From Escherichia phage nomo, in sequence record MN850578.1: DNA of 64,000 nucleotides; one strand, written 5' to 3'. A model generated the notes under the pieces. The model was not told where the DNA came from, made no database searches, and saw only the letters and a list, made by a program, of their open reading frames with translations. Shown here one piece after another: positions 12,388 through 39,296 of this stretch. How positions within the stretch are numbered: position 1 is the stretch's first letter; each line of letters begins with the position of its first letter. A program made the position numbers and the translations under genes.

Positions 12388-12434
12388 TTTATTTTTAGAT
12401 GGCCTTGACACCAGGGCCATCAATAAAGTAAACT
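12388..12434 (+). promoter_or_regulatory. repeated ~47-bp promoter/palindrome element, copy 1
   Basis: tttatttttagatggccTTGACAccagggccatcaataaagtaaac; inverted repeat gatggcc/ggccatc flanks -35. Confidence 0.5.
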
Positions 12435-12466
12435 AACCACAGTTGAGCGGAAAAGGAGGCTTAAAG

Positions 12467-12586
12467 ATGAGCACTACACGCCAGCACACAAAGGTAACCA
12501 TCATCGTTTGCATCATTGGGTACATCCTGGCGCAAATGTTGATGGGTAGCGCCAACGGTGTCGCAAAATTTTTCTTAAACTTTTAA
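12467..12586 (+). CDS. small hydrophobic peptide (39 aa, one predicted TM helix)
   Basis: RBS aaaaggagg; translation MSTTRQHTKVTIIVCIIGYILAQMLMGSANGVAKFFLNF. Confidence 0.3.
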   Translation: MSTTRQHTKVTIIVCIIGYILAQMLMGSANGVAKFFLNF

Positions 12587-12665
12587 TTGACAAGCTAACT
12601 TAAATCGATATAATAAGCACATAAACGGGAAAACTTCCCAGAACACACAAAAGGAGAAAAACACC

Positions 12666-13009: not shown

Positions 13010-13054
13010 TTATTTTTAGATGGCCTTGACACCAGGGCCATCAATAAAGTAAAC
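13010..13054 (+). promoter_or_regulatory. repeated ~47-bp promoter/palindrome element, copy 2
   Basis: Identical to 12388-12434 over about 45 nt. Confidence 0.5.
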
Positions 13055-16056: not shown

Positions 16057-16541
16057 TGCCACGTTAATTAATCCCTTTAGTGAAGATTTGAAGCCAGCCG
16101 CCTGGCGTGATGGATTCAATAACGAACGCTTTATTTTCAAGCCTGATCTTGAGGAATTTTATAACAATGGATCGAACAACGACAGAGATAATTTTTCTTG
16201 TGGTGTGCGTAGTGATGGTACTCCTGGGGGCCATTGTAAACCACGTCGCTACTAACAGGGGGAAAGGGGGAGACGATGACACCCAAGGATAAGCCCCGCA
16301 CCGATAAGGCGCGCCGTGTTATGGTATGGCTTGAGATCATCGCCCTTGAAATATTGTTAGGGGTAGGGATGTACTTTATCGCTGTAAGTAACTAAGAACG
16401 GCCCCCCGATCATGGGGGCCTATCTTTAAAAAAAAAAAAAATTCTTCCGGGGTGTTGCAATCCGGTCCGGAATGTGGATAATAACAATCAACGGGGAGAC
16501 ACTCCCCACCGCATAGACAAAGTTCCAAAAGGAGAAACAAA

Positions 16542-16743: not shown

Positions 16744-16790
16744 ATTTATTTTTAGATGGCCTTGACTCCAGGGCCATCAATAAAGTAAAT
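16744..16790 (+). promoter_or_regulatory. repeated ~47-bp promoter/palindrome element, copy 3
   Basis: tttatttttagatggccttgactccagggccatcaataaagtaaat; one mismatch in -35. Confidence 0.5.
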
Positions 16791-18531: not shown

Positions 18532-18613
18532 AATAGTTTGACAACAGTCAACAATCTGGTAAAGTGTACTACATAGCGCGGGAATACTTCCCGCCATTAA
18601 TGAGGGTAATTTA

Positions 18614-18751
18614 ATGAAAACTTTCAACGCAACAGCCTCGACAATTGGTTATATTATTACAGTACAAGCCGTGGATCTGGTAGCAGCAGCAAACAAGATT
18701 AAAAAGATGATTCCGCCAGGTAGTGAATTTTCCGTTTGGGAAGTAAAATAA
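18614..18751 (+). CDS. hypothetical micro-protein (45 aa)
   Basis: Promoter ttgaca 18538; 5' hairpin gcgggaatacttcccgc; RBS tgagggt. Confidence 0.3.
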   Translation: MKTFNATASTIGYIITVQAVDLVAAANKIKKMIPPGSEFSVWEVK

Positions 18752-18940
18752 ATCTTGACAATAATTTATTACTTGATAGACTGTATTTCGTAGTGCGGGG
18801 CAATAAGGCAACGCCCATTAATGAGGGTAGAATCATGTTAGAGAAAATTTTCACGGTTGTAGTAGTTGGCCTGGCATTATCGGTTGGATGGGTTGCAACT
18901 ATGGCTAACATGATCCTATCTTCCCACGGTATCGGTTAAA

Positions 18941-19256: not shown

Positions 19257-19541
19257 ATGAAAAAGATGATCGCAGTGGTTGCCCTGGTTGTTGGACTTAA
19301 TGCGCCTGTAATGGCTAAAGAGCTGGCAAAAGAGGTTAATCTAACGGATATCCATGCCGTCAATCAAATCGGGGTTACTTATCGCTTATGCCTTGCCGCT
19401 AAAACTTTTAATGACGGTACAACAGAGTACTACGGATTCGAGGGTATCCGGTGCGGTGAGCTTGCTCGCGACCTTAAGGAAGATCCAGACCTGGAGGATC
19501 TACCCATAACCGTGAACGGTAAAGCTTACTTTAACCGTTAA
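19257..19541 (+). CDS. hypothetical secreted/periplasmic protein (94 aa) with N-terminal signal peptide
   Basis: RBS aagagga; translation starts MKKMIAVVALVVGLNAPVMA (signal-peptide-like, AxA cleavage motif). Confidence 0.5.
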   Translation: MKKMIAVVALVVGLNAPVMAKELAKEVNLTDIHAVNQIGVTYRLCLAAKTFNDGTTEYYGFEGIRCGELARDLKEDPDLEDLPITVNGKAYFNR

Positions 19542-19690
19542 CCGTGAAAAAGATAATCATTACCTTGGGGATTGTGGCGGGATCGCTGGCGCTCTTTCCC
19601 CTTATGGTTAGATATGTGCTGATCAGTATTGTCCTGGTGGTCAGTGATCTACTAGAAACGGTTGGCACCTTGTTTTAAAGAGCGATAAAA

Positions 19691-21059: not shown

Positions 21060-23500
21060 TTTCCTACCATAAACGGCCCTACCTGGCAAGTGGAATAATT
21101 GACGAGCCATCAATCCCACACACTGTACAAATATACATGGAAAATAACTATTGCATAATTTTTCATTGTGTGGTAGCAAGGCCATTTTTACACGTTTTTC
21201 CTTCCAAAATTGCACGTAATGCAGCATTTGCACAAAATTTAACCTGATGCATATCTTCAATAGCTTGTCAACAACTAAAAATCTTTATAAGTCATACACT
21301 TACATAACTACAAAAACGTTTTCTACGTGAAAAATCGAGTATAACTATAGCCGCCAGATCTCAGAATTTACGTACGCTCGCCATTCTATAGCCTGCTAAG
21401 CATTTATTCCAACCATAGAATAACTGAATAGTCAATACCTGCATAAAATAATTATTCGTGTAAACTGCATAACATAAATCGGCCCAGGTGTCAACATTTT
21501 TCGTAAACAGTCTGGAATTGTCACGTTAGGTTACCATAAGTAGAGAAATCTTTAGTCGTCTAATGTTTACTGTACGTTACTATATTAACTGAAATCATTA
21601 GATGACTAATAGAAAGATAAGAAATAATTAACAATACAATTATTTTATCTGTAACAATAAGGCAACTATGCAAACGAATGGCATGGCGCGACGGAGTCGC
21701 GACATAATATAAAAGCAGTAACCATCACCCCCGTGATAGTTTGTCTGCAAACTATTAATCAGATCATAGTTGCCTTGTATTTAGTTAATCATGACATAAC
21801 AAGCAAGGCAACTATAGATCTGCTAATAGTTGCCCTGCTTTTATATTATGTCATGCTAATTATAATCAGTGCGATTATTGTCATGTATAATTATTGTCAT
21901 GCAAACGAATGGCATGGCTGATTATCGGTGTGTAAACAGTCAATCATGTAAATGGTTAGCATGTGAACAATCAGGAATGTAAACAATCCAGTGTGTAAAC
22001 TAATAGGTGTGTAAAAGTGTCATGTTGTGTCAGTTAGGTCACATTATGTCAGACAAGTTTTTCTCCTCTTTGTCAAGTGCTGCATGAAAAATTTACAAGC
22101 TTGTATGGTAGCATTTTTGCGGCCCTGTTTACATTCAGGAGTGTATGTATAATCCTTGTTGTGTGGGCGTTTAGACGTCTGGACGGTCAGAAGTCTGCAG
22201 GTCAATATCTAATCTATTGGCTGCTAACTATATCCCCCACAAATAATAAGAAATATAATTGTTATGTGCGTAAACAGTAACCCATGTTATCAATCCCTGT
22301 ATGTATCGCCAGTTGTGCGCATAATGGGTATTATGTTAAATTGCCCGTAATGATAACTATTCTCACAATGATAGGTATTCTCATTCACCCCCACAAGATA
22401 GGTTGCAAATGTTGTGCCACTGTGTGAACGGCCTCACCTATTAATTTGCCTCACTGCCTCGATATTTGAGAATTGTTATAAGAATGAGAAGTATTCCCAT
22501 TCCGTCCGCCTGGCAGCACTCCAGTCGCTACGGCTCCTGACAGGGCAGCACTCCTGTAGGTCAGGTCAAAATCGTGGTAGAACTGGACCTGTTCGGATAT
22601 TTCTGGCTGACTCTTCAGGTCTGTGTGGGAAAAGCCAACCCCTCCGGCGGGGCAGGGGATATCTGCAGGAAAATTGCAGGTCAATTAAAAATTTACGTGG
22701 TGTATGAAGCGCTCTTCAGGCAAGGCATGTATTAGAGGATGAAACCCTCTTCAGGCAATGATATTTGTGGGTGGGATATTTGCTGGAAAGCCAGATATGA
22801 CGGGACTCCCGGCGGGGCAGGGGTAGTACAGACAGGGAAAATATGAGGATGTAATTGGGGAAATTGATCAGACAGGTAGAGTATGGAATATGTTACAGGT
22901 ATGTTAAATATGGAGGTTGAATATCTGTAGGATTTGTGTGTAAAATCAAAGACTTAAGGGGTGTTGTGGTATTTTCTATAAATAATTCAAGTTTAATAGG
23001 CAATATTTGTCTCTATCCGCTTTGTGTGGTAAACAGATTCAGATGAAATTGGTTTACAAGTGTATACATAATATACAAATTAAAGATACAAGAAACCCCC
23101 CTCCCCCCTCGGCTACCATTCACCTTTTCCTCTGACTGGTACTTAAACACTTATTCAGACTCTTCAGGTTATCACCCATATATCATATGGCAGTGACTGG
23201 TGTCCTCCGGCCCCTCTTTCGTCACCCGTCCGCTTCGCCATGCTAATGCCATAGCCAATGGTTCGGTTGTTCACCCTGTTCACTCAGGTGTATCTCCATA
23301 CCCCTTCAAACCGAAGAGAACAGAAAACCCGAATTACTCGGTAAAAGAAAAGAGAAGAACTTAATTTTATCAGGATAGGCAAGAATGTCAAGGCATGACT
23401 GCTCACTAAACAAGCAAACAGTCATGTGTGGAAGGTAAGTGATTGTGGTGGTGGGAAATTTAGTTGAAAGATGTGTTATAGGTGCGCTTCCAGCACTTTA
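21060..23500. other. 2.5-kb non-coding convergence region with several repeat families
   Basis: No convincing ORF; repeats gcaaacgaatggcatggc (x2), tgtgtaaac-like array 21928-22016, ctcttcagg...ccggcggggcagggg units 22606-22840. Confidence 0.55.
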
Positions 23501-23520
23501 GCCTGGCAGCTAATTGTGTG

Positions 23521-23736
23521 TCAGTCCAGCGGTTCATCCTCTACTTCACTGAAATCAATGTTCATGGTCTCTTCCCAACCATCGATCTCAGCACAAGAGT
23601 GGAGTTCTTTAGGGTTTACTCCCAAAGCCTCAGCAACAGAGTCTATATTTAACACCTCTGGTAGGTATGATTCATCGAATTCAAGGTAAATCAGGCCACG
23701 AGTGTTGTCAGCCCCACCAAATATTTCTATCTTCAT
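23521..23736 (-). CDS. hypothetical small acidic protein (71 aa), MKIEI-type N-terminus
   Basis: ORF with RBS; first gene of leftward block. Confidence 0.4.
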   Translation of the reverse strand: MKIEIFGGADNTRGLIYLEFDESYLPEVLNIDSVAEALGVNPKELHSCAEIDGWEETMNIDFSEVEDEPLD

Positions 23737-26134: not shown

Positions 26135-26223
26135 ATAAGCACCTTACTGAAATACAAGACACAGTGTTAAGGTTACTGACCAGCAAATAATTAACAGTGC
26201 CGTTGCAACCTTGGCAAGATTTA

Positions 26224-26511
26224 TCATAGTGCCTCTAAGATTTCATACCCTTCGGGTCGGAATACAAGCCACTCCGTGGCTCCGTTTGGTCGATACGCTT
26301 TATACAGAACAACCTGGTCTCGGCACATGCACATGGCTACATAGTTTTCATCCACACCTGCAGCCTGCATTGCATCTTCTTCTCCGGCAACTGCTTTGCT
26401 TACAACTTCCTTGGTAGGCAGGTGTGCGATCAGCTCGTCACCATCATTAATTCCAAAATGGCTGAGTTCGCCGTTGGTATCTTTAATCTTAATCTTAACC
26501 AGATCTTTCAT
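26224..26511 (-). CDS. hypothetical small acidic protein (95 aa)
   Basis: Translationally coupled array (TAATG/ATGA overlaps). Confidence 0.45.
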   Translation of the reverse strand: MKDLVKIKIKDTNGELSHFGINDGDELIAHLPTKEVVSKAVAGEEDAMQAAGVDENYVAMCMCRDQVVLYKAYRPNGATEWLVFRPEGYEILEAL

Positions 26512-28614: not shown

Positions 28615-28884
28615 TTATTCCTCTACAATCTCATACACATCAGGAGTTACAATCAACTCTTCTCCGTTACCCGGTGCAACAAACACCACCAAACCTTCAG
28701 GTGTGTGCTTTTTAGCCATCTCGATAACATCTTCTCGCAGAGCTGGCTCCATCAGATCAAAACCTTCACCTAGGGCATCACGAACCACCTTCATATAGTC
28801 CACTGGTTGTGCTTCAACAATCATGCCTTCAACCAGTCCACAGTTTTTGTCTGCCAGCTCAGTTTTGAATAATTTAATTTTCAT
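28615..28884 (-). CDS. small acidic protein, paralog family A (89 aa)
   Basis: Starts MKIKLFK, ends PDVYEIVEE. Confidence 0.45.
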   Translation of the reverse strand: MKIKLFKTELADKNCGLVEGMIVEAQPVDYMKVVRDALGEGFDLMEPALREDVIEMAKKHTPEGLVVFVAPGNGEELIVTPDVYEIVEE

Positions 28885-29021
28885 TTAGAGGTCTCCTCAA
28901 TTATTTGATATTAATAGCCGTAACCTAACACATTAACTACAACTGCGATTGCAAACATAATTTCAAAGCATGCAATCTCTACATTTGGGACTAATTTCTT
29001 AATCACACCCATTGTAGCACC

Positions 29022-31183: not shown

Positions 31184-31278
31184 AATTCAGCCCCGCATAG
31201 ACATAATCACTATAAACAGGCAAACAATGAATCCGAATGCCACGCCACCCATAAACGTTAATATTGATGCAATCATAG

Positions 31279-32839: not shown

Positions 32840-33039
32840 CCCTCATCGCACGTCTGATATAACCACTCTATAAAATCTTGATACCATTCGCCCTCTGAGC
32901 GCTCCGTAGGCCAATAATCTTCACCCTCTCGTGCATTAAAATCTGAGTATTCAACTTTCCACTCCTTTACCAGCTCGTGGAGAAGGTTTTCAGCCTGCTC
33001 TAAAGATTTATTTTTTACCATTACTGTCTCCTTTTTCAA
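32836..33039 (-). CDS. hypothetical protein (67 aa)
   Basis: ATGA overlap with downstream gene. Confidence 0.4.
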   Translation of the reverse strand: MKKETVMVKNKSLEQAENLLHELVKEWKVEYSDFNAREGEDYWPTERSEGEWYQDFIEWLYQTCDEG

Positions 33040-33240
33040 GATAGTTATACATCAGAACTGCACCACCTAAGATGGCTACCAGTAACAATATCCCAGATAG
33101 CATCTCAATAAACATGGCTTGAAACACTGGAAGGTCTCCCTAAATTAACGCACCATTTTAAATACATGCTCTTTTCCCATAAAGGTGCCTGGCTAAGATC
33201 TGCGTAGAACGCAATCTCTTTAAGAACAGTATAGATAGTT

Positions 33241-33468
33241 TTAGGTGCGGTCTCCATCCCTACTCTCCTTCCTGATATTCTTGTAGTAATCAACTAGGCA
33301 CATTATTACGATGAAGATAACAACAGGCCAAAAAGGTGCAGCAGTGATGATGGTGATAAAATCATCAAACTTCACCCTTCGTCTGGACACGATGCATACA
33401 CCTGTCAAGAATACCGCTGTTATAACGGACATTACCAGGTAACCTATTAGCACAACATTTATACTCAT
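33241..33468 (-). CDS. hypothetical membrane protein (75 aa, two TM helices)
   Basis: Two hydrophobic helices in translation. Confidence 0.45.
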   Translation of the reverse strand: MSINVVLIGYLVMSVITAVFLTGVCIVSRRRVKFDDFITIITAAPFWPVVIFIVIMCLVDYYKNIRKESRDGDRT

Positions 33469-38709: not shown

Positions 38710-39183
38710 CTAGTCTACCTGAACCCAACCGCCTGATACTTTTTTAAACATTCTTTGGTTATCACTGCCTCGGAACGGTTTCTTGGTTGGTAAATCTTTT
38801 ACATACTTACCGTCAATGATGATATCAGCCAGTTTAAGAACATCACTAGAGATATGGTCAAATGTGAACCCAGTATATACAAGAATAGTTTTCTTGTCAC
38901 CAAATTTTTCCTTAATTTTCTCCATCAGGCTAATAATATCTGGCTCATTATAGTATGCTAAGGGTTCTCCACCCAGTAGAGAGATACCGCACACAGACGG
39001 GTTATCTAAATCTGACAAGATTTTTTGCAAGTCTTCTTCAGTGAACTTCCTCCCCTTATCTTTTGACCAAAATGCCTGATTAAAGCAACCAGGGCAAGCG
39101 TGTGGGCACCCAGATACCCACAAGGCAGTTCTAATACCTGGTCCTTCGGTGTAAGATATTTCTGTGTATCCAGCAATGTTCAT
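38710..39183 (-). CDS. nrdG: anaerobic ribonucleotide reductase activating protein (radical SAM)
   Basis: N-terminal GPGIRTALWVSGCPHACPGCFN cysteine cluster; adjacent to nrdD. Confidence 0.7.
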   Translation of the reverse strand: MNIAGYTEISYTEGPGIRTALWVSGCPHACPGCFNQAFWSKDKGRKFTEEDLQKILSDLDNPSVCGISLLGGEPLAYYNEPDIISLMEKIKEKFGDKKTILVYTGFTFDHISSDVLKLADIIIDGKYVKDLPTKKPFRGSDNQRMFKKVSGGWVQVD

Positions 39184-39296
39184 AGATACTCCGCATCACA
39201 TTTAGGGCAATGCCAAATAAAATCGTCTAGTGCCTTGCACCAACGAAGATTACAACTACAGCCGCACTTGCAAATTTTATAAATACCTGATGACAT
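39180..39296 (-). CDS. zinc-ribbon micro-protein (38 aa) between nrdD and nrdG
   Basis: Strong RBS aggagg; translation MSSGIYKICKCGCSCNLRWCKALDDFIWHCPKCDAEYL; stop overlaps nrdG start (ATGA). Confidence 0.4.
   Translation of the reverse strand: MSSGIYKICKCGCSCNLRWCKALDDFIWHCPKCDAEYL

What the first reader, a model, noticed from the sequence alone, without database searches (positions are those of the whole stretch)
12467..12586. Multiple promoter-driven hydrophobic micro-proteins (about 27-45 aa)
Several very short ORFs with good ribosome-binding sites encode single-helix hydrophobic peptides: 12467-12586, 18835-18939, 19548-19678 (GTG start), 16276-16398, and on the - strand about 33014-33118 and 28906-29012. 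They are below standard ORF cutoffs and are easy to miss; such peptides often act on host membrane proteins or act as holin/antiholin-like factors.
Basis: seen in the sequence. Interest (0 to 1): 0.45.

Follow-up and report, generated by a model that had tools for sequence, protein, structure and literature searches.

The report
Known tiny membrane proteins of rV5-like phage
The six very short hydrophobic ORFs are real in an rV5-like E. coli phage, and five of them are clearly conserved protein-coding genes, but the rV5 genome paper already listed all six in 2013 as one-helix membrane proteins, and what they do is still unknown.

Summary
The window comes from an rV5-like E. coli myovirus (Vequintavirus). 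All six ORFs exist, with small coordinate corrections. Each has one hydrophobic stretch long enough to span a membrane. Each is intact, in frame and the same length in every relative examined. Five (C1-C5) show purifying selection, with dN/dS between 0.03 and 0.46. The sixth (C6, 28911-29012 on the - strand) is conserved, but mainly at the nucleotide level: its synonymous sites vary about three times less than those of the flanking genes. It may therefore also, or instead, be an RNA or DNA element. C4, C5 and C6 sit inside operons. C3 has no Shine-Dalgarno sequence and is translationally coupled to the gene upstream. None of this is new. Table S3 of the rV5 genome paper (2013) lists all six orthologues as "membrane protein, 1 TMD", and each has its own PHROG family of unknown function. 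The holin/antiholin idea is unsupported for five of them. Only C5 lies two genes downstream of a predicted, untested two-helix "putative holin". The most likely role is as small inner-membrane modulators of host or phage membrane proteins, but that is inference. Side findings: a conserved 27-aa hydrophobic ORF that none of the annotations I checked calls (26144-26227 -), and a 29-aa one shared with E. coli prophages.

The parts
12467..12586 (+). C1: 39-aa single-pass micro-protein (rV5 ORF193/gp188; phrog_16391). It has a basic N-terminus, a transmembrane stretch at about residues 10-28, and a conserved C-terminal SANxxAKFFLxF.
   Evidence: Searches give the ORF, the AGGAGG at 12454-12459 and KD19 of 2.08. 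Searches show it intact in 15 genomes with dN/dS 0.22 (P 8e-9). One search gives the invariant columns. Searches show it only in Vequintavirus (112 records, 11 protein clusters, all 39 aa).
12398..12434 (+). Promoter-like site for C1 (TTGACA-18-TAAACT, 12405-12434). Its -35 hexamer lies in the loop of an invariant 7-bp palindrome, GATGGCC...GGCCATC (12398-12421).
   Evidence: The stems are invariant across 15 genomes, and the loop varies.
16276..16395 (+). C4: 39-aa micro-protein (rV5 ORF181/gp176; phrog_13629). Its basic N-terminus varies between genomes. Its transmembrane stretch WLEIIALEILLGVGMYFIAV, which carries two Glu, is invariant. It is the last gene of an operon, and the terminator at 16400-16420 follows it.
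   Evidence: dN/dS 0.20, P 4e-5; 118 records.
18835..18939 (+). C2: 34-aa micro-protein (rV5 ORF173/gp168, annotated there as 46 aa; phrog_14631). It has its own promoter-like site at 18755-18782. Two allelic N-terminal types share the C-terminal ATMxNxILSSxGIG.
   Evidence: (dN/dS 0.46, P 1.5e-3). Searches show it in Phapecoctavirus/Justusliebigvirus too, at 94-97% amino-acid identity.
19544..19678 (+). C3: 44-aa hydrophobic micro-protein (rV5 ORF170/gp165; phrog_16005). It starts with GTG here and ATG elsewhere. It is translationally coupled to the upstream 94-aa gene, which has what reads as a signal peptide (19257-19541).
   Evidence: (dN/dS 0.45, P 2e-6). Searches show a 59%-identical, same-length orthologue with the same TAAnnATG junction in Phapecoctavirus.
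33008..33127 (-). C5: 39-aa micro-protein (rV5 ORF131/gp126; phrog_15251). Its transmembrane core is IEMLSGxLLLxxILGGA and its C-terminus is charged. It is the third gene of the overlapping operon ORF129 (two transmembrane helices) - ORF130 - C5 - ORF132.
   Evidence: dN/dS 0.03, P 7e-19; variable fraction by codon position 0.05/0.05/0.50. Searches show a 55%-identical orthologue with the same gene order.
28911..29012 (-). C6: 33-aa hydrophobic ORF directly after the HPF/RaiA gene (rV5 ORF145/gp140; phrog_15151). The evidence that it is coding is weak. It overlaps a nucleotide-conserved island (28990-28871) and a promoter-like site (29038-29011).
   Evidence: (117 records). Searches give dN/dS 0.5 (not significant), third positions variable at 6/33 against 100/195 in the flanking genes, Fisher P 5e-4.
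26144..26227 (-). Its ATG overlaps the TGA of the upstream gene (ATGA). None of the annotations I checked calls it.
   Evidence: dN/dS 0.26, P 4e-4; 117 records. One search found no PHROG. One search showed the exact sequence is absent from the 15-billion-protein collection.
31187..31276 (-). Only a few records annotate it. Near-identical copies lie just past the lysis cassette in E. coli prophages.
33241..33468 (-). Neighbour of C5: a 75-aa protein with two transmembrane helices, which the rV5 paper calls "putative holin" (ORF129). It is the first gene of the operon that contains C5.

Best explanation
At least five of the six ORFs, plus two more that I found, are real conserved genes of Vequintavirus. 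They encode 27-44-aa peptides, each with one transmembrane helix.

They are transcribed by host RNA polymerase from sigma-70-type promoters. These lie in the two large arrays of small non-structural genes, not in the late structural region. The peptides are translated from their own Shine-Dalgarno sequences or by coupling to the gene upstream.

Once made, they most likely insert into the E. coli inner membrane. There they would act through sequence-specific helix-helix contacts on larger host or phage membrane proteins. Plausible roles are host-takeover factors, superinfection-exclusion factors or envelope modulators, comparable to bacterial small membrane regulators and to phage early membrane effectors.

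Shown here: the ORFs exist, they are conserved under purifying selection, their translation and promoter signals are conserved, and they contain a hydrophobic helix. Inferred: membrane insertion, the existence of specific partners, and the biological role.
For: - Identity of the phage and of the orthologues.
- All six are intact and the same length in 10-17 genomes. Only the proposed frame is open.
- dN/dS is 0.03-0.46 for C1-C5, with P from 1.5e-3 to 7e-19.
- Diverged orthologues at 52-70% amino-acid identity keep the length and the hydrophobic pattern.
- The start contexts are conserved.
- KD19 is at least 2.08 for all six. TMHMM and Phobius gave "1 TMD" for the rV5 orthologues.
- The conserved parts are specific motifs, not just hydrophobic stretches: the C1 C-terminal tail, the shared C2 C-terminus, the invariant C4 helix with two Glu, and the C5 core IEMLSG...LGGA kept at 55% identity. 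This argues for a defined partner.
- Genomic position: the rV5 paper places these genes in the transcription units 10-1-238-164 and 82-163, outside late genes 27-66.
- Some of these genes move between phage lineages as small units: C2 and C3 in Phapecoctavirus, and X2 in temperate prophages.
- A precedent for an early phage small membrane protein that binds host membrane enzymes is PhiNM1 Gp11 (PMC11237401).
Against: - No expression, localisation or interaction data exist for any of them. Literature searches found none.
- No similarity to any characterised family in Pfam, NCBIfam or PHROG, so the function rests on analogy.
- dN/dS for C2 and C3 (about 0.45) is looser than in neighbouring genes (0.05-0.2).
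- C6 does not show a coding signature.
- Timing of expression is inferred from promoter consensus and gene position only.
Confidence: 0.55

Rival explanations
1. Some or all are lysis-timing factors (holin, antiholin or holin accessory). They would accumulate in the inner membrane and control when the endolysin reaches the cell wall.
For: - C5 lies two genes downstream of ORF129, a protein with two transmembrane helices and a basic C-terminus that the rV5 paper calls "putative holin". It shares an overlapping operon with it. That gene order is kept in a relative only about 70% identical in DNA.
- C5 has a charged C-terminal tail.
- C4 follows a 123-aa membrane protein that one BASEL record labels "putative holin".
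- X2 homologues sit just past holin-lysozyme-Rz in E. coli prophages.
Against: - Both "holin" labels are predictions from transmembrane helices only. They also disagree with each other.
- The lysin (rV5 ORF89) is more than 20 kb away.
- C1-C4 are in an array of small genes with sigma-70-type promoters.
- No hit to any holin or lysis family in Pfam or PHROG.
- At 33-44 aa with one transmembrane helix, they are below the size of characterised holins (from my own knowledge).
- In prophages the slot after the lysis cassette is also a typical moron position (PMC3594210).
Confidence: 0.12
2. They act on the lipid bilayer itself, not on a protein partner. Small oligomeric pores or depolarising peptides, like type I toxins or YohP, or viroporin-like, would lower the membrane potential early in infection.
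For: - Their size and single hydrophobic helix resemble the depolarising small proteins described for E. coli (YohP papers listed).
- C4 and C6 carry two Glu spaced about one helical turn apart, which could line a channel.
Against: - The conservation is of specific motifs and tails rather than general hydrophobicity.
- There are eight different families in one genome, which a generic depolarising function would not need.
- No similarity to known toxin families in NCBIfam.
Confidence: 0.15
3. For C6 only: the conserved feature is a nucleotide-level element, and the ORF is incidental or secondary. The element could be the promoter and 5' leader of the downstream 89-aa gene, or an RNA structure.
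For: - Third codon positions are variable at 6/33 in C6 against 100/195 in the two flanking genes (Fisher P 5e-4).
- A 120-nt island (28990-28871) with about 10% variable sites spans the C6 core, the spacer and the next gene's ribosome-binding site.
- dN/dS is 0.5 and not significant.
- A conserved promoter-like site, TTGACT-16-TACAAT with TG, ends at the C6 start codon, so transcripts from it would lack that start.
Against: - The ORF is open only in this frame (8 haplotypes) and the peptide aligns over at least 80% of its length in all 117 matching records. It has a conserved GAGGTG Shine-Dalgarno sequence and ATG.
- Its strongly hydrophobic, helix-length composition is rare by chance (4.8% of small ORFs).
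- The predicted RNA fold is no better than shuffled sequences (z = -1.37).
- No Rfam match.
Confidence: 0.25
4. They are chance ORFs or annotation artefacts with no function.
For: They are very short, and short ORFs are common. There are 499 ORFs of 25-50 aa in the window.
Against: - Intact in all genomes, with only one open frame.
- Strong excess of synonymous changes for C1-C5.
- Conserved start contexts.
- Orthologues at 52-60% amino-acid identity keep the length and the junctions.
Confidence: 0.03

Closest known systems
rV5 ORFs 193, 181, 173, 170, 131 and 145 (gp188, gp176, gp168, gp165, gp126, gp140). Kropinski et al. 2013, Virol J 10:76, Table S3. PHROGs 16391, 13629, 14631, 16005, 15251 and 15151.
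   Same: They are direct orthologues, 53-100% identical in amino acids, with the same length and position. That paper already labels them "membrane protein, 1 TMD".
   Different: Nothing essential. The window carries the other allele of C2 (53% identical to rV5) and a GTG start for C3. rV5 annotates C2 as 46 aa and FV3 annotates C5 as 57 aa, but comparison across genomes supports 34 and 39 aa.
Bacterial small inner-membrane regulators of 50 aa or fewer, such as AcrZ, MgtS, MgrB, KdpF, CydX and YohP (review PMC12648545; YohP insertion PMC7549839)
   Same: One transmembrane helix, 27-50 aa and no enzymatic domain. They are expected to work by binding larger membrane proteins, and probably insert by the same route.
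   Different: These are encoded by a lytic phage. No sequence similarity was found (NCBIfam and Pfam negative). No homologue of the six was found in 5,426 complete E. coli genomes at blastn level.
Phage early or moron-type small proteins that target host envelope functions, such as PhiNM1 Gp11 (PMC11237401), DicB (PMC6832061), superinfection-exclusion proteins (PMC11436027) and morons (PMC3594210)
   Same: Small, non-structural and probably not late-expressed. C1 and C2 have their own promoters. C2, C3 and X2 have been exchanged between unrelated phages, as morons are.
   Different: No target, phenotype or expression is known for the rV5 genes. The rV5 peptides are 27-44 aa, and I did not check the sizes of these comparators. 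DicB is not a membrane protein.
Holins and antiholins, and the single-gene lysis peptides of small phages
   Same: Small hydrophobic phage membrane proteins. C5 is next to a predicted holin.
   Different: No family match. The genomic neighbourhood is wrong for five of the six. They are shorter than known holins. rV5 has a conventional lysin, so a single-gene lysis peptide is not expected.

Membership tests
Vequintavirus small membrane protein families (rV5 ORF193/181/173/170/131/145; PHROGs 16391/13629/14631/16005/15251/15151) | Full-length sequence match to the family profile or the type protein | tested here: met
   One search gave full-length PHROG hits with E from 4e-22 to 7e-32. One search gave tblastn matches to the rV5 locus. 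One search gave matching lengths and coordinates in Table S3.
Vequintavirus small membrane protein families | Same position in the gene order as in the type genome | tested here: met
   Searches show the same neighbours in rV5, FV3, ECP26, JES2013, JeffSchatz, HMD-6, LL12 and MiataMamis. C1 is absent from ECP26.
Small single-pass membrane proteins (50 aa or fewer) | A conserved protein-coding ORF of 50 codons or fewer | tested here: met
   Searches support C1-C5, X1 and X2. C6 is inconclusive.
Small single-pass membrane proteins (50 aa or fewer) | One hydrophobic segment long enough to span the bilayer | tested here: met
   One search gave a 19-residue KD mean of 2.08-2.49. TMHMM and Phobius gave "1 TMD" for the rV5 orthologues.
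Small single-pass membrane proteins (50 aa or fewer) | Translated, and located in the membrane | not testable with these tools
   This needs ribosome profiling, tagging and fractionation. No published data were found.
Holin | Match to a known holin family, or a lysis-category PHROG | tested here: not met
   All hits are families of unknown function, and no holin Pfam was found.
Holin | Genetic linkage to the endolysin or lysis cassette | tested here: not met
   The rV5 lysin is ORF89, 20-45 kb from the orthologues. Only C5 is near a predicted holin (ORF129), and that label is itself untested.
Holin | At least one transmembrane helix plus a highly charged hydrophilic C-terminal domain | tested here: inconclusive
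   C5 ends in EKGDSNGKK. C1-C4 and C6 have short or uncharged C-termini.
Holin | Causes timed membrane permeabilisation that the endolysin needs for lysis | not testable with these tools
   This needs lysis curves of deletion mutants or complementation of a lambda S mutant.
Moron (an independent transcription unit spread by horizontal transfer; PMC3594210) | Own promoter and terminator flanking a single gene | tested here: inconclusive
   C1 and C2 have conserved promoter-like sites of their own but no terminator directly after them. C3-C6 are inside operons.
Moron | Patchy distribution and transfer between unrelated phages | tested here: met
   This holds for C2 and C3 (Vequintavirus and Phapecoctavirus/Justusliebigvirus) and X2 (E. 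coli prophages). It does not hold for C4, C5 and C6, which are restricted to the genus and near-universal in it.

The most novel reading that the evidence does not exclude
The window carries at least eight independent families of membrane micro-proteins. Several of them (C2, C3, X2) move as tiny modules between unrelated lytic and temperate coliphages. Each may be a dedicated inhibitor or modulator of a particular E. coli inner-membrane protein. In addition, the C6 segment after the phage ribosome-hibernation gene may be a dual-function element. It would be a hydrophobic leader peptide together with a nucleotide-conserved RNA or promoter that controls the downstream gene.
Probability: 0.2. Interest if true: 0.5.

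Novelty: already known. Interest (0 to 1): 0.2.

Why it matters
If their targets were found, these peptides would be compact, naturally evolved ligands for E. coli inner-membrane proteins. They would also help explain what the roughly 88 small genes of unknown function in rV5-like phages, a group used in phage therapy and biocontrol, do during host takeover. As a genome-scan finding, though, this one is ordinary. The genes and their membrane character have been published since 2013, and nothing here reveals a function. The modest additions are these. There is quantitative evidence that five of the six are coding. C6 behaves more like a nucleotide-level element. One conserved 27-aa ORF is missing from every annotation I checked. 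Some of these genes are shared across phage lineages.

Tried and rejected
- Remote homology found nothing informative. Pfam and NCBIfam gave only sub-threshold noise. PHROGs gave only the genes' own families of unknown function. PHROG searches of eight neighbouring genes also returned only unknown-function families.
- The search for homologous proteins refuses queries under 40 aa. With the 47-aa TTG-extended C1 it returned only 11 clusters, all from Vequintavirus.
- An exhaustive phmmer search of 1.84 billion representatives with C5 gave its own family, one diverged 40-aa orthologue and one spurious hydrophobic match.
- IMG/VR yielded only a few relatives.
- I looked for distant phages carrying HPF, to see whether a hydrophobic ORF follows that gene there too. 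HPF occurs only in Vequintavirus within the phage collection, so the test could not be done.
- RNA-level explanations for C6: the fold is no better than shuffled sequences and there is no Rfam hit. With almost no variation, a covariation test is not possible.
- blastn of all six ORFs plus X1 against 5,426 complete E. coli genomes found no match.
- Literature searches for expression or functional data on Vequintavirus small genes found none.
- I did not predict structures. A single helix would be uninformative, and complexes cannot be submitted.

Full report
**What the window is.** A 10-kb stretch around the finding is 98% identical to Escherichia phages nimi and HdK5. It matches 289 phage records, most of them rV5-like E. 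coli myoviruses of the genus Vequintavirus. The - strand region that holds two of the candidates matches 120 such records. No tRNA genes lie in the window.

**Check of the observation.** All six ORFs exist.

|---|---|---|---|---|---|
| C1 | 12467-12586 | + | ATG | 39 aa | exact |
| C2 | 18835-18939 | + | ATG | 34 aa | exact |
| C3 | 19544-19678 | + | GTG | 44 aa | start given as 19548 |
| C4 | 16276-16395 | + | ATG | 39 aa | end given as 16398 |
| C5 | 33008-33127 | - | GTG | 39 aa | about 33014-33118 |
| C6 | 28911-29012 | - | ATG | 33 aa | start given as 28906 |

Each has a 19-residue window with a mean Kyte-Doolittle hydropathy of 2.08-2.49. Among all 499 ORFs of 25-50 aa in the six frames of the window, only 4.8% reach 2.0. 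Among small ORFs that lie in gaps between longer genes, run in the same direction as them and have a Shine-Dalgarno-like sequence, 5 of 12 do.

**Are they genes?** I collected the orthologous regions from up to 17 genomes. These were nimi, HdK5, rV5, FV3, ECP26, JES2013, JeffSchatz, HMD-6, LL12, MiataMamis, Aya, four unverified "Campylobacter phage" records that are really Vequintavirus, and IMG/VR contigs.
- Every candidate is intact, with the same length and stop position, wherever the locus is present.
- Only the proposed frame is free of stops in all haplotypes, and it has the lowest dN/dS of the six frames.
- I counted changes along a minimum spanning tree of haplotypes:

| ORF | Synonymous / non-synonymous changes | dN/dS | P |
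|---|---|---|---|
| C1 | 35 / 29 | 0.22 | 8e-9 |
| C4 | 16 / 11 | 0.20 | 4e-5 |
| C2 | 29 / 38 | 0.46 | 1.5e-3 |
| C3 | 62 / 75 | 0.45 | 2e-6 |
| C5 | 34 / 4 | 0.03 | 7e-19 |
| C6 | 7 / 12 | 0.50 | 0.12 |

- Diverged versions keep the length and the hydrophobic pattern. C2 has two allelic types, MLEKIFTVVVVGLALSVG... and MKQKLIDAVILVIALGIG..., that share the C-terminus ATMxNxILSSxGIG. C3 has a 59%-identical orthologue in a Phapecoctavirus. C5 has a 55%-identical orthologue in a contig that is about 70% identical in DNA.
- The start contexts are conserved: AGGAGG or AGGGGG before C1, GGGGGAG before C4, GGGAGA or GGGGGA before C5, and GAGGTG before C6. For C3 the start falls two bases after the upstream stop (TAAnnATG), including in the Phapecoctavirus.

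**C6 is different.** Its third codon positions are variable at 6 of 33 sites. In the HPF/RaiA gene upstream and the 89-aa gene downstream together, the figure is 100 of 195 (Fisher P 5e-4). A 120-nt island (28990-28871) with about 10% variable sites covers the C6 core, the spacer and the ribosome-binding site of the next gene. A conserved promoter-like site, TTGACT-16-TACAAT with an upstream TG, ends exactly at the C6 start codon. The predicted RNA fold is not better than shuffled sequences (z = -1.37) and there is no Rfam match. The ORF may be translated, but selection here acts largely on the nucleotides. I leave this unexplained.

**Transcription context**.
- C1 has its own promoter-like site (TTGACA-18-TAAACT, 12405-12434). 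A perfect consensus promoter for the next gene begins right after the C1 stop (12587-12614).
- C2 has its own site (TTGACA-16-TAGACT with TG, 18755-18782).
- C4 closes an operon that ends at the hairpin 16400-16420.
- C3 is coupled to a 94-aa gene whose N-terminus, on my reading, looks like a signal peptide.
- C5 is the third gene of an overlapping operon driven from 33702 or 33524.
- C6 follows HPF.

"Promoter-driven" therefore describes two of the six.

**What is already known.** The rV5 RefSeq record annotates all six, and so does the BASEL phage JeffSchatz. Table S3 of the rV5 genome paper lists ORF193, ORF181, ORF173, ORF170, ORF131 and ORF145 as "membrane protein, 1 TMD", based on TMHMM and Phobius. 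The text of that paper notes 88 mainly small ORFs in this part of the genome and 15 proteins with transmembrane domains. Each candidate has its own full-length PHROG family of unknown function. None has a Pfam or NCBIfam family. Annotation is uneven across records, and several omit individual members. So "easy to miss" is partly fair, but the genes are not new.

**Distribution.** C1, C4, C5 and C6 occur in 112-118 phage records, all of them Vequintavirus. C1 has only 11 clusters among 5.8 billion proteins, all 39 aa long. C2 (227 records) and C3 (162 records) also occur in phages of about 150 kb from the genera Phapecoctavirus and Justusliebigvirus. There the window's C2 allele is 94-97% identical, which is closer than to rV5's own allele, and both genes are unannotated. 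None of the six has a blastn-detectable copy in 5,426 complete E. coli genomes.

**Mechanism.** The ORFs, their conservation and their translation signals are shown. That the peptides insert in the inner membrane and act there is inferred. The conserved parts are specific rather than merely hydrophobic:
- the C1 tail SANxxAKFFLxF;
- the shared C-terminus of the two C2 alleles;
- the invariant C4 helix WLEIIALEILLGVGMYFIAV, with two Glu, next to a variable basic N-terminus;
- the C5 core IEMLSGxLLLxxILGGA.

Membrane-embedded acidic residues and small-residue motifs usually mark helix-helix contacts (established knowledge). I therefore favour binding to defined host or phage membrane proteins. 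This would resemble the bacterial small membrane regulators, or the early phage protein Gp11 of PhiNM1, which binds MurG and DivIC. The genes lie in the transcription units 10-1-238-164 and 82-163 of the rV5 paper, outside the late genes 27-66. That position fits host takeover, envelope remodelling or superinfection exclusion better than lysis.

**The holin/antiholin idea.** There is no family match. The lysin, ORF89, is far away. The peptides are shorter than known holins (my own knowledge). The one lead is C5. It sits two genes after ORF129, a 75-78-aa protein with two transmembrane helices that the rV5 authors proposed as the holin purely from topology. The gene order ORF129-130-C5-132-133 is kept in a distant relative. 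A BASEL record labels a different gene, the 123-aa protein upstream of C4, as "putative holin". Both labels are therefore guesses.

**Additional micro-ORFs.** My census found two more on the coding strand.
- X1 (26144-26227 -, 27 aa, MINLAKVATALLIICWSVTLTLCLVFQ). Its ATG overlaps the upstream stop (ATGA). It is present in all 117 matching records, all rV5-like, and has dN/dS 0.26 (P 4e-4). It has no PHROG. Its exact sequence is absent from a collection of 15 billion predicted proteins. None of the eight annotated records I inspected for this locus calls it.
- X2 (31187-31276 -, 29 aa) is annotated only in a few records. A 27/29-identical peptide is annotated in E. coli genomes. In 10 complete E. 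coli chromosomes the DNA match covers only the micro-ORF, at 77-88% identity. In the two chromosomes I examined it lies in a prophage, just after holin-lysozyme-Rz and one further gene.

**Verdict.** The feature is already known and its function remains open.

Noticed in passing
window 26144-26227 (-): X1 is a 27-aa hydrophobic ORF whose ATG overlaps the upstream stop (ATGA). It is conserved in all 117 matching rV5-like phage records, with dN/dS 0.26. No inspected record annotates it, it has no PHROG, and its exact sequence is absent from a collection of 15 billion proteins.
   Followed up: yes
window 31187-31276 (-); L030 5001-5106; L031 3501-3606: X2 is a 29-aa hydrophobic ORF. It has 77-88% identical DNA copies, confined to the micro-ORF, in 10 complete E. 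coli chromosomes. In the two that I examined, the copy lies in a prophage just past holin-lysozyme-Rz and is unannotated there.
   Followed up: partly
window 28871-28990 (-): A 120-nt island with about 10% variable sites covers the C6 core, the spacer and the ribosome-binding site of the next gene. Synonymous sites there vary about three times less than in the flanking genes. A promoter-like site at 29038-29011 ends at the C6 start codon. No RNA family or significant fold was found.
   Followed up: partly
window 12398-12421, 13019-13042, 16755-16778 (+): A palindrome, GATGGCC-TTGACnCCAG-GGCCATC, occurs three times. The -35 hexamer of a promoter-like site lies in its loop. At the C1 copy, the stems are invariant across genomes while the loop varies. 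It may be a regulated class of early promoters or a protein-binding site.
   Followed up: partly
window 39180-39296 (-): A 38-aa cysteine-rich micro-ORF (CKCGCSC...CPKC) with a perfect AGGAGG Shine-Dalgarno sequence. It is 92% conserved in an IMG/VR relative and looks like a zinc-ribbon micro-protein.
   Followed up: no
window about 21100-23700: This stretch has no long ORFs and sits where the coding strand and the GC skew switch. It corresponds to the "non-coding" region 104013-106618 described for rV5. It may be a replication origin or a regulatory region.
   Followed up: no
window 18538-18751 (+): A 45-aa non-hydrophobic ORF (18614-18751) with its own promoter-like site. It was found in only four of the relatives examined (nimi, HdK5, MiataMamis and one IMG/VR contig), so it behaves as a small insertion/deletion cassette next to C2.
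   Followed up: partly
L021 (NC_052654.1 124982-125113 and 126729-126830): The early-gene modules C2-71aa and 94aa-C3-63aa are shared between Vequintavirinae and Stephanstirmvirinae (Phapecoctavirus) at 77-88% DNA identity. The two micro-ORFs are unannotated in that RefSeq record.
   Followed up: partly
GenBank MG0656xx records (L023-L026): Eighteen or so "UNVERIFIED: Campylobacter phage" records are ordinary Vequintavirus genomes by sequence and by NCBI taxonomy. The host label is probably wrong.
   Followed up: no
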